Source: a virus
Taxonomy: Duplodnaviria; Heunggongvirae; Uroviricota; Caudoviricetes
Virus record (IMG/VR): IMGVR_UViG_651324002_000003
Coordinates: 1 to 19,933 of that record
Direction: 5' to 3' (one strand)
Length of the DNA: 19,933 nt
Shown here: piece by piece, positions 5,242-18,592 of the stretch
Layout: every line of letters begins with the position of its first letter
How positions within the stretch are numbered: position 1 is the stretch's first letter
The notes under the pieces: model-generated
What the model saw: only the letters and a program-made list of their open reading frames with translations
Database searches by the model: none
Told to the model about the DNA's origin: nothing
Translations under genes and position numbers: made by a program

Positions 5242-5267
5242 ATAGGAGAGGTTTAAACCTCTCCTAT
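5242..5267 (-). terminator. Perfect 26-bp palindrome overlapping the giant gene stop codon
   Basis: ATAGGAGAGGTTTAAACCTCTCCTAT, followed on the - strand by TTCCTTTC. The TAG stop (5264-5266) lies in the first arm. Confidence 0.6.
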
Positions 5268-8200
5268 CGTTTTTTATTAGGAAGATCGACATTCCAAGGG
5301 ATTGTCACCTTTTCAGTTCCGGAACTTGTTTTACGTGACCTAAACCCGCCCAGCAATACCGTCTTGTAATACCGCTCTGCCTTTAATAATTCGGCTTTAT
5401 CCTCACCAGACAACCCCTGTAAGAACTTCTTTCTCTGATCCCTTGTGAGTCCGGCCAATGGGGACATATTAGCCAGGGCAGTAGCAAGGCTCTGTTTCGT
5501 GCCTCCCAGTGCCTTATACTCCATCAGGTACTTTGCGGCTATCTTCTTATCACCATATCGCAGAGCCATCTTGTAGTTTCGGATTGCTTCTGACTGGTCA
5601 GACATATAGTCTCCATCGCCGCCCTTGCCAATGCTCTTTAAAAAACGATTCTTTTCCTCCATGATGTTGTAATAGGCCGTCTTATCAGGCTCAGTTTTAT
5701 AGAGTAGAAACTTCATTACGTCATATCGAGGATGCGGCTTATCGGCGGCCAAACGATATTCGTCTCCCAGCCCAAAGCTATCAAAAATGTACTCTGGATA
5801 ATCGCGAATCCGCCGGGGCTTAAAGACATCTGGGAACAGCCGGCGCCCGATCAACAATTCGCCCGTGGTTTTAATGGTTGGCGTAATGCCCTGGACGAAC
5901 TTATTGACCGGATTCTTAACCATGTCACCGGCAATCTCCGCAATTGTCTTTTTGCCATTCAGATAGTCTGTAACGGTCTTAACCGGTGTGTCCAGTCCAA
6001 ACCATTCAAGGAAATCAGCGAATGCCCCGAGGCGATTGAAGTACATTACCTTGCCATCAGCATCGCGGCCGAGAATGATATGCGGCTGCCCAGCTATATT
6101 TGGAGGAAGTTCTTTTTCCTCATCCGGCCAGAGCGCGAAATTATACATCTGCAGAAGAATCCACATCCCAGTAGCCTTTACTGCAAACTCCCCGACCTGA
6201 ACCGCCAGGTACGGAGAGTAAACAGCCGCTTTCGTCAAGAGCCTCTTGCCGACTGTTTTCGCGATACCTTCATTGGACGCGCAGTTCCGGAACAGGTTAA
6301 TATAGCGTTTTGCGTTGACCTCTGTCCAAGACCAGAAAGGAATGAGATGTTTTCGCAGTTCCTTGCCGGCAACGGAAACAGCATTGTAATCTCCAAGGAG
6401 TTCGTTGGCCAACTTGAAAGCCTTGTCCCGATTGTCCGATAGAGCCATAACCTCTTCTGACATGCTTGCCCCGAAGTTTTTCGGCCTGCCTTTATTGCTC
6501 TCTATTTGCTCAAGATATTCAAGATAATTCGCGTATCTGAGCAGTGCCTCCCGCAAATCCGTAACCTTCCGGGCACGGCCCCAGTATCCATCCCATACCT
6601 TCGCCGCACCGGTTTTTAATGCGTTTTCCAGACCATCCTTTTGCTCACTGAACCGGATAAACAACTTCAACTTATTGATATCGCCAATTTCCTGCACTTG
6701 CAGAAGGGTCTGCATTCCGCCACGTTCGAACCACTCCCGCAGTTCGTTCGTCATTTCGCCGTCTCCATAGAAGTACCGATTCAGGTCCTTCATAGATTGG
6801 CTTACCTTTCGCAAGGAAGATGGATTCCCGGCTAATACCGCGTCTAAGTCGCTCGTCATATTTCTCAAATTATACTTAATGATCCGGGACGGACTGGTTA
6901 ACTGCCATATTTTCCATGGAGTAATCACATATTGGGACCATTTGGTTCCCGTGTCATTCACGAAATCAGGCGTCATTTTCTCCAATGTAGCCGCAATTTC
7001 TTCTTTGACAATATACCCTTCACGCCGGCCGCCTATAATCAGAGCGGTTTTCAATTGTTCGGGAGATACGCCCAGGGAATTGAGCGATTCACTCATCAGT
7101 TTTTCAACCATCTGTTCTGGGACGGTACGGGCCCGGAAGAATACATTTCCCTCTCTCGGCCGCCATTCAGAATATCCTTCGGGGATCAAATCGCGCCAGG
7201 TAACATACCGCTCGCCAAGAGCACCCCGGACGAACTGTTTCTTGTCCTGTATCCCCCGGAACAGCATTGCGGCGGCTCCACTGCCAGGCTTTCCGCCCTG
7301 CTCTTTCAGCAAGTAGGCGGCATATTCCATGAGCTTGGCGTGATTTTGCTCCTGATCCTGGAGTTTGTCTGCAACGGCATCCTCCATCCCCTGTGCATCC
7401 GATGATTCCTTACGGGCAAAGTATTCCTGCGCCAGATTTTCAACAACGTCCTGATACTTATTATTCGGCCCATATGGCAATTCATCTTTTGCCGCCAGTT
7501 CGCTCAATTTCGCGAAAGCCATAGCCTGCTTGCGGTTCAACGTTTGCTTATACATTTTCCGCGCCATGGATTCGACGGTCATATCATCGCTCACAATGCC
7601 AAACTCTTCAACCATATCACGGAATACCTGCATGACATTCTGGTCATTCATCGTGAGTGCTTCGGCCTTCAGCCGGTCGATGATGTTGTATTGATCATCC
7701 ACCAACTTGATCGTCTTGGCTACCTCCATGTCATACAGCATGTCACGCATGACTTCGAATTCGGCTTCCATATAATTTAGGTTGATATCCTTTTCGCTGC
7801 CTTCACGGCGTCTGAGCCATCCCCTATTCGTCGGCGCCTTCAGCTTTTGGCCAATACCGGCTATTCTCTTCTGATCCATGTACGCCAACACCTGGTGTCG
7901 GTAGTAATCTTCCCGGGCGAATTTGTTCTCCACATTGAAGCCGATTTTTTTCATGACGGCAATGTACCTGTCCTTAATGTCAGACCAAACTTCTTTCCGT
8001 TGTTCTACTGCCTTTGTGACATTGGGATAGTTGGCGGCAATATGCTCATCAAGCCGTTCCTGTTCAACCGGTAACGTTTCCTTGGTCAGTCCAAACGGTA
8101 GCGATCCTTCTTCATGTTGCAGATCATCCAATAGGACTTTCAGCGAAAAGTGGTAGTATTCGTCCTTGGACAGATTCTTCGTGATATCGTCGAGTATCCT

Positions 8201-11200
8201 GATGACTTTGTCGTTGGCTACCCCTTTTTGCTGCTGTAGCTTCTGCAGAGCAAAGCGAATTTCGGAGAACTCAGCGGTATGCGGCATATGCTCATACTCC
8301 CGGCCAAATTTGCGTTTTAACAAGTCCCACGCGCTCTTTAGGCTATCTTTAATACTGGTGGACTCTTTGGCACCAATAACGCCCTGCATGGCCTTTTCCG
8401 CCCGTCTTTGTGTCTCCTCGTTTTGGAATGTGAACCTATCACCGGCGACCGGCTTTTTCTGGATCGGTTCCTTTTGTGGAGTCGGCTTAGTGTAAATGAT
8501 TGTCCCGTCCGGCTTTTCTTCGCGGGTCCAGTTGCGCTCATTCAGCGCCTGGATAAGCTTTTTATAGTTATCGCCTTTCTGGGTGACTTTGGAGAAGGTC
8601 AGTTTGTCCGGAAGTTGCGCGTCTTTTGAGAAGCGAACCTTATCAGCATCTATCAATAATTTATATCCACGTTTTCTGACCTGCTGCTCCAGCATATTCA
8701 TATCATCGAACTTTTGACGAACATAGTCTCTGCTTTCGCGGAGGGTGATCGGGTCATATCCTTCGGCAGCGTTATCCGCGTCCGACCATACACCATTCGG
8801 GTCAATTTGTTCTAACAGATCAATAAGGGTTTCTCTCGAAAAGGTATTGATATTGTCCATAATTTCTTTGGGTGTATAGCTCTGTTTTGAGCGTTGAGGC
8901 TGACCGCCGCCGGAGTAACGAATGTCTGGATTGCTGCTATCAAATGTACCGATGTTATCAGTGGCAGACTTAATTTGATTGGAATAAAAAGCAATATATG
9001 TGTCCCCGCCGTCTTGCCCTTTTATAATAGCTCCATCAAACCCGGCCTCTTTAGCTTGTTTTAAATCAAATCCTTCGCCATTTTGCCATTGCTTATTGGT
9101 ATAGCGGTATGGATTTTTAATGTTCAAATACGCAGGAATGATGTTGCCATATTCTTTGGCAGTATCCCTGTTAGTAGTGAAGAAGAATCCGTCCTCACTT
9201 TCTATCTTTTGTGGATCGAAAGTAGAGAATGATTGTTTTGTACCGTGGTAGACAATGAGCGGCATACCCTGTTTGTCAACAACGGCCGAACTCTTCCCAT
9301 AATTTGTGCCAGTAGGCGGCTTGACGAGATTCAACAAATCTGCTACTGTATTAGCAGAAACACCGTTGGTTTTCTCACTTAATCCTGGGGCAGATTTATT
9401 CCGGCCCAGGACATGAGAATCCAGCGGTGTAATTTTTATGGCATTCAGATGATAAGCCTGTTTTCCTTTTAATGTTTCTTTCACTGTTAGCTCAGTTAAA
9501 TAATCATTGTTGCCAATTGAAAGCGGAGCGACAAAGGTGTGTACAAATGGAACTTCTGGCACATCATGCCTATTGGTTTCAGTAGAAACTAATATGGCAT
9601 TTTCAACAATATCAGGAATGGAAGCAATGGCCTTGACGGAATCGATTTTCCCGTTTGTGATGGCATAATAAGACGTTTCATTCAGCACTGCTTTTGAAAT
9701 ATTAATATCCCATCCAGTATCTTTATTTTTTCGTTCTCCACGAAATTCAGGCTGTTTCTTGGCCCATGCCGTCGCTTCTTTAGCAGCAGCTTTTACATTT
9801 TTAGACTGGGTTGCCTCTGTTCCCGTGATAGTGGTAATGGGAACATGGGTCTGATCGTTAACGCGCCAATCACCAAACCAACTGCGGAAGAACGGCGACT
9901 TAACTCCGACAGTATCCCAGAAGTGCTCGGCCCACGACCGTACCCAGGACTCTTTAAGCATCTCGGCAGGAATCCCCGCAATATTGACATGCTTTACACC
10001 CTTCGGCGCCGGTGCAAACTTTTTATCTTGTGAAGCAGCAGTTTTACCTGCCGTGCCAACCTCATAGCCACTGTCCTTTAGCGACCTAATAACAATATCC
10101 GGCAGCACTGCCTCAATTTCCGAAATTTGCTCCCGAGTTAAGCCGCTATTTCTGTATGAACGTTTCCCGGTCAGAAACTGCAACCATTCTTGCACCGATT
10201 GAACAATACGCTTAAACAGCGCCGGCGACTTCTTCTGTATTTTTTCCCACAGTGATTCACTGCCGAAGCCGTTACCAACTTCATCGCCTATCATTTCCTC
10301 AATGACAGCTTCCCGGTCCATCGCTTTACCGCGCTCTCCCAGACGCCGGCGGTATGCATCAACTTGCGCGTCCGTAACCTTGCTGACCGCTGACCGCATC
10401 GCCTTATACACACCGGGGCGATTTTCGGCTAACCAGTGAGTAAATTCATGGCCCAGCGTCCATTCCAGCGACAGATTGCCGTTACGGTTTAAATACAGTG
10501 TGCCATCCATGTAAAAACCACGCAGGGAAGTATCTGCGTGGTCTATTATTTCGGCCTTGGCGCCTAAATTATTAGCAAGGTCTATGATCCGCTGTTCGTT
10601 CGTGGTTGGGTCAACACTTTCTGCATTGTCGATGATCCCGGCGTCGCTGGAGAACTTAGCTTCGCGTAAGGCGCTGCTGGATTCTTCGATAAATGCCTTC
10701 CGGTCTGCATCCGTGTTAAAGGCGAACCCCTTGACGGCATCCCCTTTTTCCCAGCTATTCCACCATCCATCATGTCTTTTTGCAATATTCATGTGCTGAT
10801 CAAAGTTGTCTCGCAGATACTTCTTCGCTTTGGCGATATAGATCAGATTTTTATTTTTCGTATGGCGGAATTCATGTTTTGAATAATTATCTTCCTGCGT
10901 TGCTTCTTCCGTTGCGCTTTCGGTTTCACGGGATTGGCTGGAGATTGGCGAGGTTGCAGACCGCGCCGATTGAACCTGAAGCCTGTCGGGGAGAGAAATG
11001 GTTTCGATCCGGTCAAATAATTCTCCGATTGTTTCGGCATCGGACAAATCAATATGACGATTGTCTATCTCTTCCGTGCCGGCAGCATCTATATGTTTTT
11101 CAATGACAACAATCTTGGTTCGCACTCCTGTGCCGGCTCTTTCAAACGTAACGGACGGTAATTTGATTTCAGCAACCGGATAGGCGCCGGTTGCCTCTTC

Positions 11201-14200
11201 GGAGTCATACCATGCATTCAGCCGTTTATCTGCCAGGCCGCCATCAGGAAGAAGCGCAACGATCCTGCCGCCGTCGTAAAGATGTTTATACGCCTTCCCT
11301 AAATGCTCTATAGCGGTTTTCCCGCCATGGCCATAGGGAGGGTTCATAACCACTGCATTAAATTTATTGATAATATGATAGTCTTCAAACCGGTTGGATA
11401 CCAGTTTTGCCGGGCTGACCATCACTGCACGGGGCCCCAATTGCAGGCTCGGTTCAATCATCACGTGATCTGCATGGCCTGGGAAGAACCTGGCAATAGC
11501 TCCATGTCCCGCAGAAGGTTCCATGGCCCGTTCCCCGGGCTTCATGTTCGCCCATTCCACCATTTTATATCCAATAGGTTCCGGCGTCGCATAGTAATCA
11601 TTGCCTTCTGCCGACTTGTTTTGACTGGTCTTCTTCTGCTGAGAGAAATAATAGGATTTTGCCCGTTGGAATTCCGTCATCTCCCGCCGATTTGCCCGGT
11701 CTTTTGCTTTTCCGCCCGTTCCTTCGGCGTCCATCCCAGCCGGAAATTCCCCGCTCATTTCGTAGGCTTCAATGAACGAATCCTTTAGCCTCCGCGCCTC
11801 ACCGCCAAGCGCCAGGTTCTCTGCCGTAGACGCACGTTCTGCAATTTTAGTGGCAAAGGCAAGGCGTTCAAAGGTGGTTCCAGTATTCAGATAGCGGAAT
11901 ATGGCATCCGACATCTGACCCGTTCGATAGATACGGCCCTCAATTTGAATAGCCGCCGTAGGACGGACCGGCATGCCCAGGTTGATCAAGACCCGTTGGT
12001 GTTTGCCTGTCCGGTCATGCAGGCTGATCCCTTCCCGGCCGGCATCAGATTGCACTACGATAAGGTCCTTACCACTGTCATCATCATTGAATAAATCGAC
12101 GTTCTTGCCGCGCACCTTCTTGGGAATTGTGCCATTAAAGAACATAGCATCTTCGCCGAATGACTGTTTCACCTGTTCTATCGGCGACAGCAATTCAGAA
12201 AGGTCCAATTTGAGCAAATCCGGGCGCTTGGCAGTAAATTCATGATACAAACTCCGAAGGTCTTCGGGGATGAATTCCGGCCTGAACGGATGGAATCCAC
12301 CGCCCTTGTTGAAGTCATGAAACAACACTACCTTTTTACCCTGTTTCAGGTAATCCTTGACCAATCCTACCGCATGTTTGGCCTTAATGGACTCCAGAAG
12401 ATACATCTTTTGATGATAAGCAAACTGGTCGTCGATGAAATCATACAGAGGGCTATACTTTCTGTCTTCTGCCTCCCACAGCCAATTCAATCCTTCATCG
12501 ATCTTGCCGCCTATGGCATCATTGACCAGTACAAAGTTACGGTCATAGTCTTTATCCACCGTCAGCATCCGGCCGGACAATACGCCCTGGCCTCTCAGCC
12601 ACTCGTGGAATTGCTGTTCCATAATCTCATTATCCACATTGGCATCCGGAGATGTTAACCTGTTATAGCGCATCCGATAGCCGAAGTGGGTAATGAAGAA
12701 ATTCTCCCGGGAGTCCGGTTGATTATACCCGCGGTATTCGTCCGTATCCTGACCATAACCAAACAGGTATCCCTCGGCATATTCGACGTTTTTTACATAG
12801 GCGAAAGGAGTCGCCGACAGGAAAACCACTCTGCTTCGTTTCTCTGGAGGAACAGCGTCCCACTCTTCATACCGTTCTTTGCGCAGATTCTCAATACCAG
12901 TGGATAAGTCCCTGGATTTTTTCTCCAGAGCATCATACTGTTCCCGTTCCTCTTTCGTTCCGGGCTTAAAGTTTCTAAGTTCTTCATAGGCGCTGCGTTC
13001 TTTTTCAACCAAATCCCGTTCAAGGTCATCAAATCGCTGACGATACCCATTGCGATGAAGGGTAATAGCTCGGAGCGCAGACGCTGCACCGGTGATATCC
13101 CCTTGTTCGCTACTGGACAGGTAATGGGACTCATCGGGAACAACTAGGTCCCAATGCCGTTTCGCCAATTCTTGGTTTTGCCCCAGGTTAGCATAAGTGG
13201 TTATGACAATACCCTTGCCGGCGCTCTTGGTATCCTCAAGTTTTGTGATATCCAATCCCATGTTCTTCCCGGCATCAATCCACCCAGCAATGATTTTATC
13301 GTTAGGGGCAACAATGAGAATATTGTTTTTTCCCTGTCTGGCAAAGCGCTTCACAATGCCAATTCCGGTAAAGGTTTTCCCCGTACCAGTCCCGTTGGTA
13401 AACAATACGCCATAGCCGTCGGGCTTCGAAAACCTTTCTTCCGCAAACAGGACATCGTTCTGTTGTTCAGGCATTAAAAAAGGCAGCGTTTTCCGGATGT
13501 TCTCCAGGTTCGCCACCTTTACTGGTATGGATTCAGCTTTTTTCTGTGCCTCTAGTTTGGAAGCTAAGGATGTTCCGCCGGTTTCAGTTTCGGTTCGGTC
13601 TGCAGCAATTGCAGCAAGTCCTTTTGTTGCTGACGGGTCAGATTGTACTCCTTCGTCGCTAAATAGGCTGCTTCCTCCAGGGAGTTCACTTCCGGCAGCA
13701 CGTTCCTGATCCACGGCCGTTCCGCCGCGTACTCCCTGATTCCTTTCGCTTCCGCCACGAGCGGCGCCACCAGAAGGAACCCGTCTATTACCCGGCTGTC
13801 GATCCCCTGTTTCTCCAGTCTCTTCGCTTCCTTGTCCATCGCCTCGGCGATTTCCTGCTGATTCATTGCGAAGTACTTCTGGCCCCACCCCGTCTCGATT
13901 GGGCACAGTTGCGTTATCTCGTTCCAGATTCTCGCGGCCACGTTCACCATACTGACTCCCTCCCTCGAATCCCGGCCATTCAGAAACGCCGGAAAATGCT
14001 GCTTTTACCATGGGGACAAAATCTGCCCCCAGATCCTCTTGTATCCGCTGCTCCATCCCAGTCTGATTCGTAACCCCGTCCTGATAGAGGATTCCCGCAT
14101 ATTCAAACAAAGAGTTGGCTACCCGATCATTATATTTGACATCTTCCGGCCACGCCGTGATGGAATTCCAAACGCTTTTCAGATAAGGCCGGATTCTTTC

Positions 14201-17200
14201 TCCCACCGTATCTACCATTGTAGCGGACCAATCAGAGAAGTTATTGATACCCCGCTGCATGTGAATGGCACCGACCTTAAACGCCGCTCCCATTAACGTG
14301 GGGTTAAATACGGGATTGGAACTAATCTTGCTGAGTTCGGATTGAAGCTCTTTCATGGCCTGCGCTAAAGCCGCATCGCTGTCATCCACGATATTCAGCT
14401 TCTTTTGCTTCGGTTTCTTGCCGGTTAACTCCAGGAGTTGATTGCGAAGCCTATCCCGATTTGCCTGGCTCCCATCGAATCCGGTGATATTATTGCCGGA
14501 TTCGGGAAGTTGCTCAGTCTGTTGTACAGACTGTTGTTCGCTTTGTTGTACGGTCTGTTGTGCGCCTTGTTGTTTTATTGACGGTTCCGCTTCATTTACT
14601 GGGCGCGATCCACTTTTGGATTCTGATATGTTGTTTTCCTTTTGGCGATTTCCGCTCTCCGTCTCTTGATTTCCTTGTCCAGTTCTTCCGGATTGTTCGC
14701 CAGATGCTCCAGACCCAACGCTTTCAGTTTCGACTCGAATGACATTAGAATTTCCCCCTTGTTCTTTCAGTTGTTTCTCCAGTTCAGCAAACAACTGATT
14801 CTTTTTGTTTAAAACAGCGAGTTCCGAGTCGGATATCATGTTTTGGTATGACGGATATCCATTAAACTCATCTGCCGCATAGTGGATACCAATACCCGTT
14901 TGCAGGTGAGTCTTTTTACCGTGCATCAGTTTATCCAAGCCATTCGACTTAGCATAGTCCGCAATTTGGGCTTGAGCACGCTGTAACGCAGTATCCAACG
15001 TTTCTTTTGATATATCCGGGGTCAATATGCGCCACTCGTCGCCACCCCATCTGAAATATTGTGCATGGTCAGCAACGGCGCCCACTTCATCGGAAACGAT
15101 CTTGGTGATCACTCGTAAGTGTTTATCAGCCGCTTCGTTTCCAGCAACGCCATTCAACCCGCCCAGATTGAGGAAGTCCACGTTAGCAAAGGCAAACTGC
15201 CGGCCGTTCGCTTTAAACTCATCCCACGCCCGTTCTACTGTGGGCGTGAATTGCCCCTTGACTTGATACCCAATGGTTTCATCAACAACGCGCGGGGCTT
15301 TCCTGCGCTCAATGAAGCTGTTTGCAGTCTGCTGCGCATGGTCTTCGCTCATTCCCTGAGAAACCAGTTCCGCAGCAAGTTCCTGTCTTTCCTGTTGTCG
15401 GTCCACTTCCGTTTGCGCTAAAAAGGGTTTTGCCTTTTGTACCTGGCTTTCACCCTGCTCCTGCTGTTGCCGTTCTTTCAGCGCCGTCCGGATGTGATCC
15501 GGGAGTTTTTCAACCTGAGCACGGCCTTCCGGAGTGTCCATCTTCTTCCGTAGGGCTTCGCTGCGCAGTGCTTCTTCTACTTGTTTTTGTTTTCGGGACT
15601 GTGCGGCGCGGGATTCCTCTGACTCGATACTGGATCGGCCGAAGGACTGGAATTGTTCCGCTGCCCCCCGAAGATCCCGATTGCCGCCTGTGCCGCCGGC
15701 GACAGATGGTTGAACCCACTCGGGGACTTGCTGGTTGATGTTTTCCCGGGTTGTTTCGATTGCATTTACAGTCGCCTCCAGTGCGCTAAACTCATCGCTG
15801 ATAGTTTCATCTACAGACCAATGGCGCCGGCTGCCGCGCAGGATACTGACAGCCAAATCGTGATACTTCTGATTGTTCATCGGATACAATTGGCGATACC
15901 AATCAGGATTAGTACTTGCGCGGACTTTCCCCTCACCATCTTGTTTAGATATTAATTCTACGCCGCCTTCTGCCGCTTCCTGCTTCAACAAACGAACTTC
16001 TTGCTGTATCCGGGAGTTTATTTCTCCTGTAATTTCATCCCTGACCGCATCTAAGCTTACATTATAGGACCGAAGGATATCCAGGAAGTACTGTTCGTCA
16101 CCCGAAAGGTTTTGGTAGGCCTGTGCCATGCGCCGCTGTTCCCGGAATAAGGCCGCATTGGTATTCGCTTCACCCGGCTGACCTTGTTTGGCAAAAGTCT
16201 GTTGCTGCGGCGTATTGGCTATGAGTTCTCCCAAGGATATAAATCTCTGAGCCCTTGCGGCATCTCCTTTAGCCTGCGCCAGTCTGGCTGCCTCCTGGTA
16301 ATTCCGACTGTTCAATGCCCGTGTAATTTGTTCCTCGGAGTCAGCCTCTTCGTATTTACGCGCCAATTGTTCACTGCCAAGCTGCCGGGCCATACCGGCG
16401 GCCGCCCGGTAGTCTCCCGCCCGAGCCGCATTATCCATTGATTTTTCAACGGCGAATCTCTGTGCGTTGGTCATTCCATCAACGGATTGAGGAATCTGTT
16501 CCCTTGCCTGTGTCAGCGTTATGCCACTGCCGGAAGGGATTTCAATGGATGTACCCGGATCGCCGCCCGGTATGGACGGAGTTACGCCAGGCGACGGAGC
16601 CTGAAAGTATTGTACGCCCCCCACATTATACCGGCGCCATGCGGGATTAGCCTGACCAAATTGTTCGGCCTGCCGGGCATCGGAAAACTCGACTACTTGC
16701 GGTTGCGGTATCGACACCGGAGCAGGAGTTTGGTCCTCGGTTGCCTGACTGGCTTGATTGGCATTAAATTCCGTTGCCAGTCTGAAAAAATCCTCATCAT
16801 TCAAGGATGGACCCTGCTGTTGTTCGTCCTGTACTTGCTCTTGTTGCTGTTCCTGCGGGGTAATTTTGAAAACACCGTAATCTACCCCTGCCTTCGCAAT
16901 AGTGGAGTTGGTTATATTGATTTTACCTGCTTCGTTGAATATCCCATATTGGGCATCCATTTGCGACAGATTTTTGGTGGCGAGATCGATCATGAATTGA
17001 CCCTTTTGTGTTTCTTGCTCCGTCTTCCCCTGCTTGATTGCCTTTTCTCCCTGACGGGCTAAGTCAAAATTCGCTGTTATCTGGTTTTGCAGTTCTCTTT
17101 CCGCATTTTCGACCTGTTTCTGAGTAACGGGATCGACCGCCCCACCGGAAAGAGTTTGCAATTCTTTGGTGACTCCGCTGCGGCGCCGGGAGTCCATCAC

Positions 17201-18592
17201 CCCACGTCCGGCTGCGCCGACACCAGCGGATACCGCCCCGATTGCAAAAGCTGAACGCATTTCTCGGAAGTTCTCATCAGAGAACGGGTTCCAGTCCATT
17301 CCTTCCCCCGTGACATAGCGTTGGATATTGCTCTGCGGTAGTTCTTCCATAACGGATTCACTCAGGCCATTAGCTATCAATGTGGCGGCTACCTTAGCCC
17401 CCGGGCTCAGTTTGTCCCATTGTTTTGCAAGCCTTCCGCCAAACCGTTTTGCTATCGGTCCGGCACCACGGGTAAACAGTCCCCATTCCAGCTTATTCGT
17501 TACAGCCAGCAGAGCGGTGTTCCCGACCATGACCTTATCAGCACGGTTCACTGCCTGTCCCCGGGCGTATTCATCCGCATCTTTTAAGGACATTCCCTGC
17601 CGCATGCCTTCATCATAATACAGTTTATAATCCTCATCGTATCGGTTGCCTGCTTCTACCGATGCTTCAGCCATGGCGGCCAGGGGAGTACCAACAACCG
17701 GAATAGCATTTAACGGCAGGTTGGTAATAGTGAATGGGATATTTCGCTGGACATCCGTCCAGGTTTCGACCAGCGCTGACTGGATAGGGCCAAGACGCTC
17801 CCGGTCTTCTTCCGTAAGATCATCGCTTTTATATTTCTCATAAGTTTCTCTGCCGCTTTGTTCCCACTCCTGTCCTTTATTCTCCAGCCAGTGAGTGAAT
17901 GACCCTGGCTGCGGGGCCGGGATGGGTTTAACCTGCTTTTCTTTTTCAGTCAGAGCCGCAATCCCGGCAATCACTGGACTAGCCGTGGTTTTTACAATAT
18001 CACTTACTAAGTCAGGAGCATTAAGAGCATTGGACATATATCGCATACCAGTGCCATAGCCAGATTGTGCCTGACCAAATCCGGCGATGAAGTCATTGGT
18101 CGCTCTTTTGGGAGGAACCGGGGTGGATTGAAAGTCAAAATCATCTAAGCTCGCTGGTCTCTGGGAATACATTTCGTCCTGCTGATCATGTAACTTCTTC
18201 GCATAGTCCGTCGCCGCTTCCGGCGTGTCGAACTTGCCAAGATGCTGGCCGGTTTTAATGTACTGATCTACGGCCTCGTTCTCGGTTAATATCCTGCCAT
18301 CGTCGCTAACAGTGGGAATCAGCACTTCTCTTCCGTCCATATTAATGCTCATAGACCGAACCGTGCTGATCGATCCGTCTGCATTGCGCACAACGGGGCG
18401 ATTGGAAAGATCAATATTACCTTGTTCGGCCGGCCCGGAAGACGCCGGCAAATTAATAAGCGGCTTGCTCTGTTGAGCAGCCGCTCCATTGTAGTTGTTG
18501 ATAACCGAATCAATATCCGATGGTTGAGTTTGATAATCCGCTTGCATAGCAGGAGGCTGAGGTGCATTCGCTGCACCATTATCACCGAACAA
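5264..18592 (-). CDS. Giant polyvalent protein, probable phage internal virion/ejection protein (>=4442 aa; ~4490 aa if joined to the ATG at 18735)
   Basis: Single 13.3-kb ORF with recognisable motifs: RWGGDEW, GTGTGKT/DESH/SAT/QIEGRIYRTGQ, EPSAGHG/NPPY, HEFTH and VYHGT. It has G/A-rich hydrophobic segments near the N-terminus and lies between an ejection-like gene and the lysis cassette. The TTG at 18592 has no SD. Confidence 0.9.
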   Translation of the reverse strand: MFGDNGAANAPQPPAMQADYQTQPSDIDSVINNYNGAAAQQSKPLINLPASSGPAEQGNIDLSNRPVVRNADGSISTVRSMSINMDGREVLIPTVSDDGRILTENEAVDQYIKTGQHLGKFDTPEAATDYAKKLHDQQDEMYSQRPASLDDFDFQSTPVPPKRATNDFIAGFGQAQSGYGTGMRYMSNALNAPDLVSDIVKTTASPVIAGIAALTEKEKQVKPIPAPQPGSFTHWLENKGQEWEQSGRETYEKYKSDDLTEEDRERLGPIQSALVETWTDVQRNIPFTITNLPLNAIPVVGTPLAAMAEASVEAGNRYDEDYKLYYDEGMRQGMSLKDADEYARGQAVNRADKVMVGNTALLAVTNKLEWGLFTRGAGPIAKRFGGRLAKQWDKLSPGAKVAATLIANGLSESVMEELPQSNIQRYVTGEGMDWNPFSDENFREMRSAFAIGAVSAGVGAAGRGVMDSRRRSGVTKELQTLSGGAVDPVTQKQVENAERELQNQITANFDLARQGEKAIKQGKTEQETQKGQFMIDLATKNLSQMDAQYGIFNEAGKINITNSTIAKAGVDYGVFKITPQEQQQEQVQDEQQQGPSLNDEDFFRLATEFNANQASQATEDQTPAPVSIPQPQVVEFSDARQAEQFGQANPAWRRYNVGGVQYFQAPSPGVTPSIPGGDPGTSIEIPSGSGITLTQAREQIPQSVDGMTNAQRFAVEKSMDNAARAGDYRAAAGMARQLGSEQLARKYEEADSEEQITRALNSRNYQEAARLAQAKGDAARAQRFISLGELIANTPQQQTFAKQGQPGEANTNAALFREQRRMAQAYQNLSGDEQYFLDILRSYNVSLDAVRDEITGEINSRIQQEVRLLKQEAAEGGVELISKQDGEGKVRASTNPDWYRQLYPMNNQKYHDLAVSILRGSRRHWSVDETISDEFSALEATVNAIETTRENINQQVPEWVQPSVAGGTGGNRDLRGAAEQFQSFGRSSIESEESRAAQSRKQKQVEEALRSEALRKKMDTPEGRAQVEKLPDHIRTALKERQQQEQGESQVQKAKPFLAQTEVDRQQERQELAAELVSQGMSEDHAQQTANSFIERRKAPRVVDETIGYQVKGQFTPTVERAWDEFKANGRQFAFANVDFLNLGGLNGVAGNEAADKHLRVITKIVSDEVGAVADHAQYFRWGGDEWRILTPDISKETLDTALQRAQAQIADYAKSNGLDKLMHGKKTHLQTGIGIHYAADEFNGYPSYQNMISDSELAVLNKKNQLFAELEKQLKEQGGNSNVIRVETESVGSGASGEQSGRTGQGNQETESGNRQKENNISESKSGSRPVNEAEPSIKQQGAQQTVQQSEQQSVQQTEQLPESGNNITGFDGSQANRDRLRNQLLELTGKKPKQKKLNIVDDSDAALAQAMKELQSELSKISSNPVFNPTLMGAAFKVGAIHMQRGINNFSDWSATMVDTVGERIRPYLKSVWNSITAWPEDVKYNDRVANSLFEYAGILYQDGVTNQTGMEQRIQEDLGADFVPMVKAAFSGVSEWPGFEGGSQYGERGRENLERDNATVPNRDGVGPEVLRNESAGNRRGDGQGSEETGETGDRQPGNRRVPSGGAARGGSERNQGVRGGTAVDQERAAGSELPGGSSLFSDEGVQSDPSATKGLAAIAADRTETETGGTSLASKLEAQKKAESIPVKVANLENIRKTLPFLMPEQQNDVLFAEERFSKPDGYGVLFTNGTGTGKTFTGIGIVKRFARQGKNNILIVAPNDKIIAGWIDAGKNMGLDITKLEDTKSAGKGIVITTYANLGQNQELAKRHWDLVVPDESHYLSSSEQGDITGAASALRAITLHRNGYRQRFDDLERDLVEKERSAYEELRNFKPGTKEEREQYDALEKKSRDLSTGIENLRKERYEEWDAVPPEKRSRVVFLSATPFAYVKNVEYAEGYLFGYGQDTDEYRGYNQPDSRENFFITHFGYRMRYNRLTSPDANVDNEIMEQQFHEWLRGQGVLSGRMLTVDKDYDRNFVLVNDAIGGKIDEGLNWLWEAEDRKYSPLYDFIDDQFAYHQKMYLLESIKAKHAVGLVKDYLKQGKKVVLFHDFNKGGGFHPFRPEFIPEDLRSLYHEFTAKRPDLLKLDLSELLSPIEQVKQSFGEDAMFFNGTIPKKVRGKNVDLFNDDDSGKDLIVVQSDAGREGISLHDRTGKHQRVLINLGMPVRPTAAIQIEGRIYRTGQMSDAIFRYLNTGTTFERLAFATKIAERASTAENLALGGEARRLKDSFIEAYEMSGEFPAGMDAEGTGGKAKDRANRREMTEFQRAKSYYFSQQKKTSQNKSAEGNDYYATPEPIGYKMVEWANMKPGERAMEPSAGHGAIARFFPGHADHVMIEPSLQLGPRAVMVSPAKLVSNRFEDYHIINKFNAVVMNPPYGHGGKTAIEHLGKAYKHLYDGGRIVALLPDGGLADKRLNAWYDSEEATGAYPVAEIKLPSVTFERAGTGVRTKIVVIEKHIDAAGTEEIDNRHIDLSDAETIGELFDRIETISLPDRLQVQSARSATSPISSQSRETESATEEATQEDNYSKHEFRHTKNKNLIYIAKAKKYLRDNFDQHMNIAKRHDGWWNSWEKGDAVKGFAFNTDADRKAFIEESSSALREAKFSSDAGIIDNAESVDPTTNEQRIIDLANNLGAKAEIIDHADTSLRGFYMDGTLYLNRNGNLSLEWTLGHEFTHWLAENRPGVYKAMRSAVSKVTDAQVDAYRRRLGERGKAMDREAVIEEMIGDEVGNGFGSESLWEKIQKKSPALFKRIVQSVQEWLQFLTGKRSYRNSGLTREQISEIEAVLPDIVIRSLKDSGYEVGTAGKTAASQDKKFAPAPKGVKHVNIAGIPAEMLKESWVRSWAEHFWDTVGVKSPFFRSWFGDWRVNDQTHVPITTITGTEATQSKNVKAAAKEATAWAKKQPEFRGERKNKDTGWDINISKAVLNETSYYAITNGKIDSVKAIASIPDIVENAILVSTETNRHDVPEVPFVHTFVAPLSIGNNDYLTELTVKETLKGKQAYHLNAIKITPLDSHVLGRNKSAPGLSEKTNGVSANTVADLLNLVKPPTGTNYGKSSAVVDKQGMPLIVYHGTKQSFSTFDPQKIESEDGFFFTTNRDTAKEYGNIIPAYLNIKNPYRYTNKQWQNGEGFDLKQAKEAGFDGAIIKGQDGGDTYIAFYSNQIKSATDNIGTFDSSNPDIRYSGGGQPQRSKQSYTPKEIMDNINTFSRETLIDLLEQIDPNGVWSDADNAAEGYDPITLRESRDYVRQKFDDMNMLEQQVRKRGYKLLIDADKVRFSKDAQLPDKLTFSKVTQKGDNYKKLIQALNERNWTREEKPDGTIIYTKPTPQKEPIQKKPVAGDRFTFQNEETQRRAEKAMQGVIGAKESTSIKDSLKSAWDLLKRKFGREYEHMPHTAEFSEIRFALQKLQQQKGVANDKVIRILDDITKNLSKDEYYHFSLKVLLDDLQHEEGSLPFGLTKETLPVEQERLDEHIAANYPNVTKAVEQRKEVWSDIKDRYIAVMKKIGFNVENKFAREDYYRHQVLAYMDQKRIAGIGQKLKAPTNRGWLRRREGSEKDINLNYMEAEFEVMRDMLYDMEVAKTIKLVDDQYNIIDRLKAEALTMNDQNVMQVFRDMVEEFGIVSDDMTVESMARKMYKQTLNRKQAMAFAKLSELAAKDELPYGPNNKYQDVVENLAQEYFARKESSDAQGMEDAVADKLQDQEQNHAKLMEYAAYLLKEQGGKPGSGAAAMLFRGIQDKKQFVRGALGERYVTWRDLIPEGYSEWRPREGNVFFRARTVPEQMVEKLMSESLNSLGVSPEQLKTALIIGGRREGYIVKEEIAATLEKMTPDFVNDTGTKWSQYVITPWKIWQLTSPSRIIKYNLRNMTSDLDAVLAGNPSSLRKVSQSMKDLNRYFYGDGEMTNELREWFERGGMQTLLQVQEIGDINKLKLFIRFSEQKDGLENALKTGAAKVWDGYWGRARKVTDLREALLRYANYLEYLEQIESNKGRPKNFGASMSEEVMALSDNRDKAFKLANELLGDYNAVSVAGKELRKHLIPFWSWTEVNAKRYINLFRNCASNEGIAKTVGKRLLTKAAVYSPYLAVQVGEFAVKATGMWILLQMYNFALWPDEEKELPPNIAGQPHIILGRDADGKVMYFNRLGAFADFLEWFGLDTPVKTVTDYLNGKKTIAEIAGDMVKNPVNKFVQGITPTIKTTGELLIGRRLFPDVFKPRRIRDYPEYIFDSFGLGDEYRLAADKPHPRYDVMKFLLYKTEPDKTAYYNIMEEKNRFLKSIGKGGDGDYMSDQSEAIRNYKMALRYGDKKIAAKYLMEYKALGGTKQSLATALANMSPLAGLTRDQRKKFLQGLSGEDKAELLKAERYYKTVLLGGFRSRKTSSGTEKVTIPWNVDLPNKKR
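5780..6370 (-). other. LPD38-like C-terminal region of the giant protein (approximate bounds)
   Basis: LIPFWSW...ELPP....PHIILG...YF.RLGAF...ITPTIK...ELLIG..LF resembles the C-terminal regions of phage polyvalent/ejection proteins. Recognised from memory and needs an HMM check. Confidence 0.45.
8912..9290 (-). other. ADP-ribosyltransferase-like domain (ART-PolyVal type)
   Basis: VVDKQGMPLIVYHGT (YHGT at 9239-9250), GFFFT, AKEY, AYLNIKNP, GFDGAII, YIAFYSNQIKSATDN.GTFD..NPDIRYS. Confidence 0.8.
9430..9760 (-). other. LPD3-like (BECR-fold-like) domain (approximate bounds)
   Basis: KNKDTGWDINIS...AIASIPDIVENAILV......HTFVAPLSIGNNDYLTELTVKE....AYHL, the characteristic pattern of LPD3-type polyvalent domains. 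Confidence 0.6.
10150..10590 (-). other. Zincin-like metallopeptidase domain (MPTase-PolyVal type)
   Basis: LRGFYMDGTLYLN...TLGHEFTHWL (HExxH at 10436-10450) followed by EEMIGD (candidate third ligand). Confidence 0.8.
11090..11610 (-). other. N6-adenine DNA methyltransferase domain
   Basis: DYYATP, SAM-binding motif I EPSAGHG (~11501-11521), catalytic motif IV NPPY (11333-11344), and GGRIVALLP. Confidence 0.9.
11790..13490 (-). other. SF2 helicase/ATPase, Strawberry-notch-like
   Basis: Walker A GTGTGKT (13373-13393), DESH (13124-13135), SAT (12809-12817), SDAGREGISLH and QIEGRIYRTGQ. The GxSLH...QxxGRxxRxGQ pattern is typical of SBNO-type C-terminal helicase domains. Confidence 0.88.
13564..13950 (-). 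CDS. Nested 128-aa gene in the +1 frame of the giant gene
   Basis: GGAGG (13963-13959) lies 8 nt before ATG 13950. The product has a helical, globular-looking composition, while the giant frame over exactly this interval is G/R/E/S low-complexity. Confidence 0.75.
   Translation of the reverse strand: MVNVAARIWNEITQLCPIETGWGQKYFAMNQQEIAEAMDKEAKRLEKQGIDSRVIDGFLLVAPLVAEAKGIREYAAERPWIRNVLPEVNSLEEAAYLATKEYNLTRQQQKDLLQLLQTEPKLKPAEHP
14513..14572 (-). repeat. Degenerate 12-bp tandem repeat (5 units) encoding QQxx linker
   Basis: (C/T)TGTTG recurs at 14519, 14531, 14543, 14555 and 14567, encoding QQGA-QQTV-QQSE-QQSV-QQTE. Confidence 0.85.
14596..14745 (-). CDS. Nested 49-aa gene in the +1 frame of the giant gene (not in the ORF track)
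   Basis: AAGGGGG lies 8 nt before ATG 14745. The translation is MSFESKLKALGLEHLANNPEELDKEIKRRRAEIAKRKTTYQNPKVDRAQ, TAA at 14596-14598. The giant frame here is S/G/E/N low-complexity. Confidence 0.65.
   Translation of the reverse strand: MSFESKLKALGLEHLANNPEELDKEIKRRRAEIAKRKTTYQNPKVDRAQ
14795..15200 (-). other. GGDEF-like nucleotide cyclase domain (GGDEW variant)
   Basis: VDFLNLGGLN..AGNEAADKHL...FRWGGDEWRIL (GGDEW at 15032-15046) aligns by eye with D.D.FK..ND..GH..GD..L...RYGGDEF. Confidence 0.75.
15016..15038 (+). repeat. 23-bp exact direct repeat, copy 2 (copy 1 at 3408-3430)
   Basis: CCGGGGTCAATATGCGCCACTCG, here encoding EWRILTP of the GGDEW motif. Confidence 0.95.
15577..15765 (-). 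CDS. Possible nested 62-aa gene in the +1 frame of the giant gene
   Basis: GGAGG lies 9 nt before ATG 15765. The product is S/P-rich with one hydrophobic patch (LSPAAQAAIGIFGG). The SD could arise by chance from Leu-Glu-Ala codons. Confidence 0.35.
   Translation of the reverse strand: MQSKQPGKTSTSKSPSGFNHLSPAAQAAIGIFGGQRNNSSPSADPVSSQRNPAPHSPENKNK

What the first reader, a model, noticed from the sequence alone, without database searches (positions are those of the whole stretch)
13564..13950. Nested 128-aa gene immediately upstream of the helicase domain
Seen: GAGGGAGG-8 nt-ATG; 129 codons with no stop. The product (..MNQQEIAEAMDKEAKRLEKQG..PLVAEAKGIREYAAERPWIRNVLPEVNSLEEAAYLATKEYNLTRQQQKDLLQLL..) has amphipathic-helix patterning. 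The giant frame reads GERGRENLERDNATVPNRDGVG..., a typical by-product of overprinting. The TAG falls a few codons before the conserved helicase N-terminus. Inference: selection acts mainly on the nested frame here, and the product may regulate the helicase-MTase.
Basis: partly seen in the sequence, partly recalled or inferred. Interest (0 to 1): 0.8.

Follow-up and report, generated by a model that had tools for sequence, protein, structure and literature searches.

The report
Hidden gene inside giant phage gene
A real, conserved gene for a small folded protein is written one base out of frame inside the floppy linker of a 4,442-codon prophage gene. It sits just before that gene's helicase-methylase part in every relative examined, and none of the four phage records I opened annotates it.

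Summary

- **Location.** Window 13564-13950 (- strand) is a 128-codon ORF in the +1 frame of a 4,442-codon polyvalent-protein gene. GAGGGAGG lies 8 nt before its ATG.
- **Conservation.** The ORF recurs at the same spot in about 130 loci from phages, prophages and metagenomes (82-83 lineages below 80% identity), with hosts in at least five phyla.
- **Linkage.** 80 loci were chosen only for having the related helicase. All 80 carry the ORF, in frame +1, ending at the helicase's first residues.
- **Selection.** dN/dS is mostly 0.2-0.4 in the nested frame, about 2 in the giant frame over the same bases, and 0.06-0.31 in the helicase.
- **Both frames kept open.** The giant frame has no stop there in 83 lineages. 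Random synonymous recoding of the nested protein would leave it open only about 1% of the time.
- **Structure.** The nested product folds confidently as an all-alpha protein (pLDDT 84). The giant frame over the same DNA is predicted disordered (pLDDT about 42).
- **Initiation.** An SD-like motif precedes the ATG in 69 of 82 lineages, against about 11% background. A stop within 0-5 codons upstream in 20 lineages excludes frameshift fusion there.

The family matches no Pfam, NCBIfam or PHROG model and no known fold, and it is not TnpV. Its function is inferred only: a partner of helicase-methylase enzymes. This scan has found the same kind of nesting before on other DNA, mostly with other (TnpV-like) small genes.

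The parts
13564..13950 (-). Nested gene, called 'WN' here after its invariant Trp-Asn motif. It has 128 codons plus TAG and lies in frame +1 of the giant gene. The product is an all-alpha protein of about 14 kDa.
   Evidence: ORF and translation. Homologues at the same place and frame. Purifying selection. Fold with pLDDT 84.4 and pTM 0.79.
13959..13966 (-). Shine-Dalgarno-like GAGGGAGG, 8 nt before the nested ATG (13948-13950).
   Evidence: Read. An SD-like motif is present at this place in 69 of 82 lineages, against 10-12% at other +1-phase positions or ATGs in the same loci.
13637..13960 (-). The same DNA read in the giant frame (giant residues about 1545-1652). It is a disordered, Gly/Ala/Ser/Asp/Arg/Glu-rich linker that is kept open but whose sequence is not conserved.
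   Evidence: pLDDT 38-47 with no secondary structure. 11% hydrophobic residues, against 33% in WN. Apparent dN/dS about 2. No stop in 83 of 83 lineages, although only about 1% of synonymous recodings stay open.
13958..14485 (-). Conserved all-alpha domain of the giant protein directly upstream of the linker ('updom', giant residues 1370-1545).
   Evidence: 63% identity to L005 and L023 and 21-25% to the other aligned relatives, with an RPYLKSWY-type motif. pLDDT 91-97. No Pfam family and no clear fold match.
11693..13564 (-). SNF2/Sno-type helicase module of the giant protein (residues 1677-2300). It begins where the nested gene stops.
   Evidence: Pfam ResIII, Helicase_C and Helicase_C_4. 41-68% identity to 22 relatives. 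Its position relative to the WN stop is given.
10673..11692 (-). N6-adenine DNA methyltransferase module that follows the helicase (residues about 2300-2640).
   Evidence: PHROG families annotated as DNA methyltransferase match residues 2323-2514. It is conserved behind the helicase in most loci long enough to show it.
5264..18592 (-). Host gene: a 4,442-codon polyvalent protein with GGDEF, helicase, methylase, LPD3 and ART-PolyVal domains.
   Evidence: The same architecture is described for a prophage protein of Acetonema longum in PMC5512222.

Best explanation
**What it is.** The 128-codon ORF is a genuine protein-coding gene embedded, one base out of frame, in the giant polyvalent-protein gene of a prophage.

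**How it is made.**
- Ribosomes start at its own Shine-Dalgarno/ATG inside the giant gene's mRNA.
- They make a free, folded, mildly acidic all-alpha protein of about 14 kDa.
- Ribosomes translating the giant frame read the same bases as a disordered spacer. That spacer joins an upstream helical domain to the helicase-methylase module.
- Selection preserves the amino-acid sequence of the small protein. In the giant frame it preserves only the absence of stops.

**What is shown and what is inferred.**
- Shown: dual coding, purifying selection on the nested frame, conserved start signals, and strict linkage to the helicase-methylase module.
- Inferred, at about 40% odds: the small protein works together with that module, which resembles DarB of phage P1 only in domain content, as a partner or regulator. 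Nesting would keep its gene and dosage tied to the module.
- The stated confidence refers to the shown part.
For: **Recurrence**
- tblastn of the product hits four cultured phages. Every hit is in frame +1 of the annotated giant CDS.
- 14 viral, 9 genomic and 17 metagenomic loci were found from the product.
- All loci with enough flank except the stand-alone copies show ATG at profile position 1 (two codons upstream in four) and the giant frame open across the ORF. The third frame holds 2-19 stops.
- In L027 and L040/41/43 the host ORF is only 332-584 codons.

**Unbiased linkage**
- 80 loci were chosen by the helicase alone (46-67% identity). All 80 have the ORF: 119-141 codons, frame +1.
- The stop lies within -46 to +65 nt of the helicase match start, with one locus at +197.

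**Selection**
- Codon-position pattern.
- Phase switch confined to the ORF.
- dN/dS.

**Giant frame kept open by selection**
- 0 stops in 83 lineages. The expected open fraction is a median of 1.2% under synonymous recoding.
- Stand-alone copies carry 1-3 stops there.

**Fold**
- pLDDT 84.4 with only 15 sequences.
- pLDDT 38-47 for the giant frame on the same DNA with 38 sequences.

**Independent initiation**
- SD-like motif in 69 of 82 lineages, against 10-12% background.
- In-frame stop 0-5 codons before the ATG in 20 of 82 lineages, and directly adjacent in 3.
- The giant-frame residues across the ATG vary: NV, DV, NA, DA and others.
- The two SD-less loci seen are verrucomicrobial.

**A real protein family**
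- 563 clusters at E <= 1e-3, most of the 150 listed about 120 aa long and starting at Met1.
- Some carry the domain in ordinary multidomain proteins.
- One AlphaFold DB entry of 130 aa matches at TM 0.82.

**Functional link**
- Stand-alone relatives sit at the head of two different type I R-M operons.
- Others lie in islands holding SNF2 helicases, one of them with methylases.
Against: - There is no direct evidence that the protein is made.
- No sigma-70-like promoter lies upstream, so expression must depend on the giant gene's own transcript.
- 13 of 82 lineages lack a recognisable SD.
- The functional part rests on gene neighbourhood only.
- The fold matches nothing known, and no family model matches.
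- Relatives are not phylogenetically independent, so counts such as 80 of 80 overstate the number of independent observations.
Confidence: 0.88

Rival explanations
1. The ORF is a chance by-product. A linker poor in hydrophobic residues rarely creates stops in its +1 frame, and the similarity seen in the +1 frame merely reflects conservation of the giant frame.
For: Openness alone is unremarkable: other frames of the same gene hold runs of 116-244 codons. Only 11% of the linker's residues are hydrophobic. Similarity does leak between frames: the -1 frame of the stand-alone P0024 gene matches the window's linker at E 3e-5.
Against: The +1 product is far better conserved than the giant-frame product on the same bases: 66% against 35%, and 31-36% against 19-26% at long range. 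dN/dS is below 1 only in the +1 frame. The start codon and SD are conserved. The fold is confident. The domain also exists in ordinary non-overlapping proteins.
Confidence: 0.02
2. The +1 frame is real coding sequence but is not a separate gene. It is reached by programmed ribosomal frameshifting from the giant frame. That would give either a truncated N-terminal product ending in this domain or, with a second shift back, a giant protein that contains the domain.
For: The +1 frame is open upstream of the ATG for a median of 11 codons and up to 188. In the natural proteins P0006 and P0016 the upstream domain and this domain are read in a single frame.
Against: In 20 of 82 lineages a stop lies 0-5 codons before the ATG, and in 3 it is directly adjacent, which leaves no room for a shift site. 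Met is at position 1 in 91% of 111 family members. The SD-like motif is enriched seven-fold. I did not look for a conserved slippery motif, so none is known. Some leakage by frameshifting in individual phages is not excluded.
Confidence: 0.05
3. The gene is real, but its product does not serve the phage's own helicase-methylase. Instead it is an autonomous anti-restriction or anti-defence effector aimed at host type I restriction enzymes. Alternatively it is a chaperone that loads the giant protein into capsids.
For: Polyvalent proteins are thought to carry early anti-defence functions, and the DarB-type methylase-helicase dyad protects DNA from type I restriction (PMC5512222). The family is mildly acidic, with median pI 5.1. 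Relatives lie next to type I R-M genes.
Against: It is unclear why an inhibitor of restriction would be encoded as the first gene of R-M operons in cellular islands. The acidity is far from that of DNA mimics. The chaperone idea fits poorly with relatives in non-phage islands. None of this was tested.
Confidence: 0.25

Closest known systems
Rz/Rz1 embedded spanin genes of phage lambda (own knowledge; not re-examined here)
   Same: A complete small gene with its own start lies wholly inside a larger same-strand phage gene in the +1 frame. Both products are made.
   Different: Rz and Rz1 are of similar size and form one complex. Here the host gene is 35 times longer and the overlap covers only a disordered linker. 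The nested frame, not the host frame, carries the sequence constraint. The nested protein has no lipobox or signal sequence.
comS inside srfAB of Bacillus subtilis (own knowledge)
   Same: A small gene nested out of frame inside a giant multidomain gene and expressed from that gene's transcript.
   Different: comS has 46 codons, is confined to a narrow group, and overlaps a folded enzymatic domain. The gene here has about 125 codons, folds on its own, spans several phyla and overlaps a spacer.
Spacer of hepatitis B virus polymerase overlapping preS/S
   Same: The host protein reads the shared DNA as a dispensable, disordered spacer, while the other frame carries the constrained protein.
   Different: An animal virus with an unrelated protein. 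There the overlap is part of a genome-wide compaction rather than a single insert.
TnpV-like small genes nested in linkers of polyvalent or DarB-like methylase-helicase genes
   Same: The same architecture: a helical-protein gene of about 120 codons, in frame +1, with its own SD, in the low-complexity linker next to the helicase-methylase dyad of a giant mobile-element gene.
   Different: A different protein family. No PF14198 match was found in the window's genome or in 111 family members, and profile-profile probability is 0.2%. Here the module order is helicase then methylase, and the gene precedes the helicase.

Membership tests
Embedded same-strand overlapping (overprinted) gene pair | One ORF lies wholly inside another on the same strand in a different frame | tested here: met
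   frame +1, giant residues 1548-1677.
Embedded same-strand overlapping (overprinted) gene pair | Both frames are kept open across divergent relatives, beyond expectation | tested here: met
   0 stops in both frames in 83 lineages, about 10 stops in the third frame, and a median of 1.2% expected for the giant frame.
Embedded same-strand overlapping (overprinted) gene pair | Protein-level purifying selection on the embedded frame | tested here: met
   dN/dS 0.08-0.75 in 17 pairs; codon-position phase switch.
Embedded same-strand overlapping (overprinted) gene pair | Own translation start signals | tested here: met
   SD-like motif in 69 of 82 lineages against 10-12% background. ATG at profile position 1 (within a few codons) in 80 of 80 helicase-selected loci.
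Embedded same-strand overlapping (overprinted) gene pair | Both products detected in cells | not testable with these tools
No proteomics is available.
TnpV (Pfam PF14198) | Match to the family profile | tested here: not met
   No match in the window's genome or in 111 family members at E <= 0.01. hhalign probability is 0.2%.
Any curated protein family (Pfam, NCBIfam, PHROGs) | Profile match of the nested product | tested here: not met
   none.
Polyvalent protein (host gene; Iyer et al. 2017, PMC5512222) | Many unrelated effector domains in one giant polypeptide of a phage or conjugative element, including polyvalent-specific domains | tested here: met
   GGDEF, ResIII/Helicase_C, LPD3 and ART-PolyVal; the same architecture is described for Acetonema longum.
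DarB-type methylase-helicase dyad (phage P1) | SNF2-like helicase and N6-adenine methylase in one polypeptide | tested here: met
DarB-type methylase-helicase dyad (phage P1) | Sequence relatedness to P1 DarB and its domain order (methylase before helicase) | tested here: not met
   phmmer of DarB against the giant protein found nothing. The order here is helicase then methylase. P1 (first 50 kb, including darB and ulx) has no homologue of the nested gene.

The most novel reading that the evidence does not exclude
Hidden small genes may be an integral, general component of helicase-methylase modules in polyvalent proteins. This family sits in front of the helicase-then-methylase type. TnpV-like genes sit in the methylase-then-helicase type. 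The small protein would be an obligate trans-acting subunit or switch of the module. It would be kept inside the linker so that it can never be separated from the module by recombination, and it was repeatedly 'released' to serve type I restriction-modification operons.
Probability: 0.3. Interest if true: 0.85.

Novelty: new variant of a known kind. Interest (0 to 1): 0.75.

Why it matters
- **Strength of the case.** Long same-strand overlapping genes with strong comparative support are rare in bacteria and their phages. This one rests on 82-83 lineages below 80% identity, drawn from hosts in at least five phyla.
- **An unusual reversal.** The embedded frame holds the folded, constrained protein. 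The giant host frame degenerates into a spacer.
- **Annotation gap.** Gene callers forbid such overlaps. All four deposited phage records examined lack the gene. A whole protein family of 563 clusters has no curated model.
- **Biology.** Polyvalent proteins are thought to be anti-defence weapons. An unrecognised component tied to their helicase-methylase module, and recurring at type I R-M operons, is a concrete and testable lead.

Tried and rejected
**Fold and family searches that found nothing**
- Fold searches of the nested protein found nothing convincing. PDB Foldseek had a best E of 2.2, BFVD 1.2, VIA-align wide a best Z of 4.3 and the ESM Atlas a best TM of 0.48.
- A PDB sequence profile search gave a best E of 0.008 to TOM5, judged to be chance.
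- Atlas feature searches of P0001 and of the C-terminal part of P0109 gave no usable hit.
- Fold searches of the upstream domain gave nothing clear.

**Comparisons that were negative**
- P1 Ulx and other P1 proteins: no homologue of the nested gene in the first 50 kb of P1, and DarB is not detectably similar to the giant protein.
- TnpV relationship: rejected.
- The idea that the small gene was an older free-standing gene later bridged by a read-through linker is not supported within the sampled diversity. Stand-alone forms are scattered among nested ones, with at least 4 changes forced by supported branches. One stand-alone form still carries a piece of the giant gene's upstream domain. The deeper origin stays open.

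**Other checks**
- Promoter scan upstream of the ORF: nothing above the shuffled expectation.
- Literature searches found no description of this nesting.

- The search for related loci with the 111-sequence alignment failed for lack of a conserved stretch.
- One search of earlier findings failed because it held too many words.

Full report
**What is in the window**

The window's largest feature is a 4,442-codon ORF on the - strand (5264-18592). It carries GGDEF, ResIII/Helicase_C, LPD3 and ART-PolyVal domains, and PHROG matches annotated as DNA methyltransferase. That makes it a polyvalent protein in the sense of Iyer et al. 2017, who describe the same architecture in a prophage protein of Acetonema longum (PMC5512222).

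The flagged ORF, 13564-13950 (-), has 128 codons plus TAG. It lies in frame +1 of the giant gene over giant residues 1548-1677. GAGGGAGG, an 8-nt spacer and ATG are read directly.

Openness alone proves nothing. The 146-codon stop-free run is the longest in that frame, but others of 116-244 codons exist in other frames.

**Recurrence at the same place and in the same frame**

- tblastn of the product against deposited phage genomes hit Klebsiella phage vB_KpnP_ZX1, two Vibrio phages and Ruegeria phage 45A6, at E 2e-9 to 1e-6.
- In all four, the hit starts at a distance of 1 modulo 3 from the start of the annotated giant CDS. That CDS is the only annotated feature there.
- Each has an ATG exactly seven codons before an invariant (I/V)WN(E/Q)I motif, and an ORF that stops just before the helicase.
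- Searches seeded with the product found 14 viral, 9 genomic and 17 metagenomic loci.
- Every locus with enough flank, apart from the stand-alone copies described below, shows the ORF in frame +1 of an ORF that stays open across it. In most loci that ORF spans the whole locus or thousands of codons. In L027 and L040/41/43 it has only 332-584 codons. The third frame holds 2-19 stops.
- Named hosts are Anaerospora, Pyrinomonadaceae, Polaromonas, Verrucomicrobiae, Maridesulfovibrio, Halocynthiibacter and Luteolibacter.

**Linkage measured from the other side**

I searched viral contigs with the helicase alone. 389 contigs encode a relative, and the best 80 (46-67% identity) were kept.
- All 80 carry the ORF, in frame +1, with ATG at profile position 1.
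- The ORFs are 119-141 codons long.
- The stop lies within -46 to +65 nt of the start of the helicase match, with one locus at +197.
- The giant frame is open across the ORF in all 80.
- In loci long enough to show it, the methylase follows the helicase.

**Which frame is under selection**

- Codon positions. Differences between relatives peak at the nested frame's third position, which is the giant frame's first. In the flanking helicase they peak at the giant frame's third position.
- Product identity. For window vs L005 the nested product is 66% identical and the giant-frame product of the same bases 35%.
- Phase switch. A sliding window places the switch at about 13954-13595 and nowhere else in 6 kb of well-aligned sequence.
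- dN/dS (Nei-Gojobori) over 17 pairs: 0.08-0.75 in the nested frame (mostly 0.2-0.4), 0.9-3.1 in the giant frame on the same bases (mostly about 2), and 0.06-0.31 in the helicase.

**The giant frame is also maintained**

- In 83 lineages (below 80% identity) the giant frame has no stop over the 120-codon domain.
- Recoding the same nested protein with random synonymous codons leaves that frame open in a median of 1.2% of trials (mean 3.9%).
- Stand-alone homologues have 1-3 stops in that frame.
- This is therefore true dual coding.

**Structure**

- With only 15 sequences AlphaFold2 gives the nested product a mean pLDDT of 84.4, pTM 0.79 and eight helices.
- The giant frame was folded from residue 1370 to 1699 with 38 sequences. 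It shows a confident helical domain (pLDDT 91-97). Then, over the part shared with the nested gene, pLDDT is 38-47 with no secondary structure. Confidence recovers about 25 codons before the nested stop.
- The linker is 11% hydrophobic and rich in Gly, Ala, Ser, Asp, Arg and Glu. The nested product is 33% hydrophobic.

**How it is expressed (inferred from sequence)**

- An SD-like motif lies 5-18 nt before the ATG in 69 of 82 lineages. The rate is 10-12% at other +1-phase positions or ATGs in the same loci.
- The two SD-less loci seen are verrucomicrobial.
- In 20 lineages a stop lies 0-5 codons before the ATG in the nested frame, and in 3 it is adjacent. Frameshift entry is therefore excluded there.
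- Met is at position 1 in 91% of 111 family members.
- The giant-frame residues spanning the ATG vary, so the ATG is not held by the giant frame.
- No promoter-like site lies upstream, so translation is presumably from the giant gene's mRNA.

**What the protein is**

- A profile search of 1.84 billion representatives found 563 clusters at E <= 1e-3, and 428 at E <= 1e-10. Most of the 150 listed are about 120 aa long and start at Met1.
- No Pfam, NCBIfam or PHROG model matches.
- Only one AlphaFold DB cluster matches, an uncharacterised 130-aa protein at TM 0.82.
- No solved or viral structure matches.
- The family is mildly acidic, with median pI 5.1.

Some members are ordinary, non-overlapping proteins with the domain at the N-terminus:
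- P0024 lies directly upstream of hsdR-hsdS-hsdM on a 95-kb element.
- P0109 lies directly upstream of hsdM-hsdS-darT-macro-hsdR.
- P0016 and the Bradyrhizobium protein (L030) lie in integrative islands. P0016's island holds dcm, vsr, an SNF2 helicase and an MmeI-type methylase. L030's holds an SNF2 helicase, a deaminase-domain protein and a Prim-Pol gene.

On a tree of 81 domains, these stand-alone forms are scattered among nested ones. P0016 still carries a piece of the giant gene's upstream domain in the same frame (49% identity, E 3e-22). This suggests repeated release from polyvalent genes.

The window's genome has a single copy, and only 1 of 40 relatives has one, as expected for a mobile element.

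**Function**

Function is not established.
- The strict position in front of the helicase-methylase module suggests a protein that works with helicase-methylase enzymes. So does the reappearance of released copies at helicase-methylase (type I R-M) operons. I put this at about 40%.
- An autonomous anti-restriction effector or a packaging chaperone are alternatives.

**Relation to what is known**

- The architecture is that of embedded overlapping genes such as Rz/Rz1 or comS in srfAB (own knowledge).
- Like the hepatitis B polymerase spacer over preS/S, the host frame is the unconstrained one.
- I found no publication describing nested genes in polyvalent proteins.
- This scan has noted the same kind of nesting before on other DNA, mostly with TnpV-like genes in methylase-then-helicase genes.
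- I tested that lead. This family is not TnpV.

**Verdict**

The gene is real with high confidence. Its function is open.

Noticed in passing
Neither has a tblastn match in any fetched locus, including the nearest relatives whose flanks cover the equivalent region. On present evidence they are not conserved.
   Followed up: partly
L020-L022 (P0024) and L052 (P0109): Multidomain proteins that begin with the same domain are the first gene of two different type I restriction-modification operons. One of those operons has a DarT-macrodomain pair inserted between hsdS and hsdR.
   Followed up: partly
L032:6001-7242 (P0016), compared with L012:2400-3020: In this natural protein the giant gene's upstream domain and the nested domain are read in one frame. 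By eye this looks like a one-base indel just before the ATG. The gene lies in an integrase/AlpA island beside dcm-vsr-SNF2-MmeI-type methylase genes.
   Followed up: partly
L026 and L031 (Verrucomicrobiae MAG, Luteolibacter): The nested gene is present, but no purine-rich motif precedes its ATG.
   Followed up: no
window about 13564-13640 (- strand): The last 25 or so codons of the nested gene overlap the point where the giant frame regains predicted structure (helix at model residues 284-299). This short stretch may be constrained in both frames.
   Followed up: no
L027:7553-8539: In a Thermodesulfobacteriota MAG the nested gene sits in a host ORF of only 328 codons (upstream domain plus linker). 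A fragment resembling the methylase C-terminus follows in another frame. This is apparently a decayed copy in which the small gene is still intact.
   Followed up: partly
MW722080.1, MG592596.1, KT820175.1, OZ196038.1 (L001-L004): All four deposited phage records annotate only the giant CDS at this place. The nested gene is missing from their annotation.
   Followed up: yes
window 13958-14485 (- strand): The helical domain of the giant protein just upstream of the linker folds very confidently (pLDDT 91-97). It has no Pfam family and no recognised fold.
   Followed up: partly
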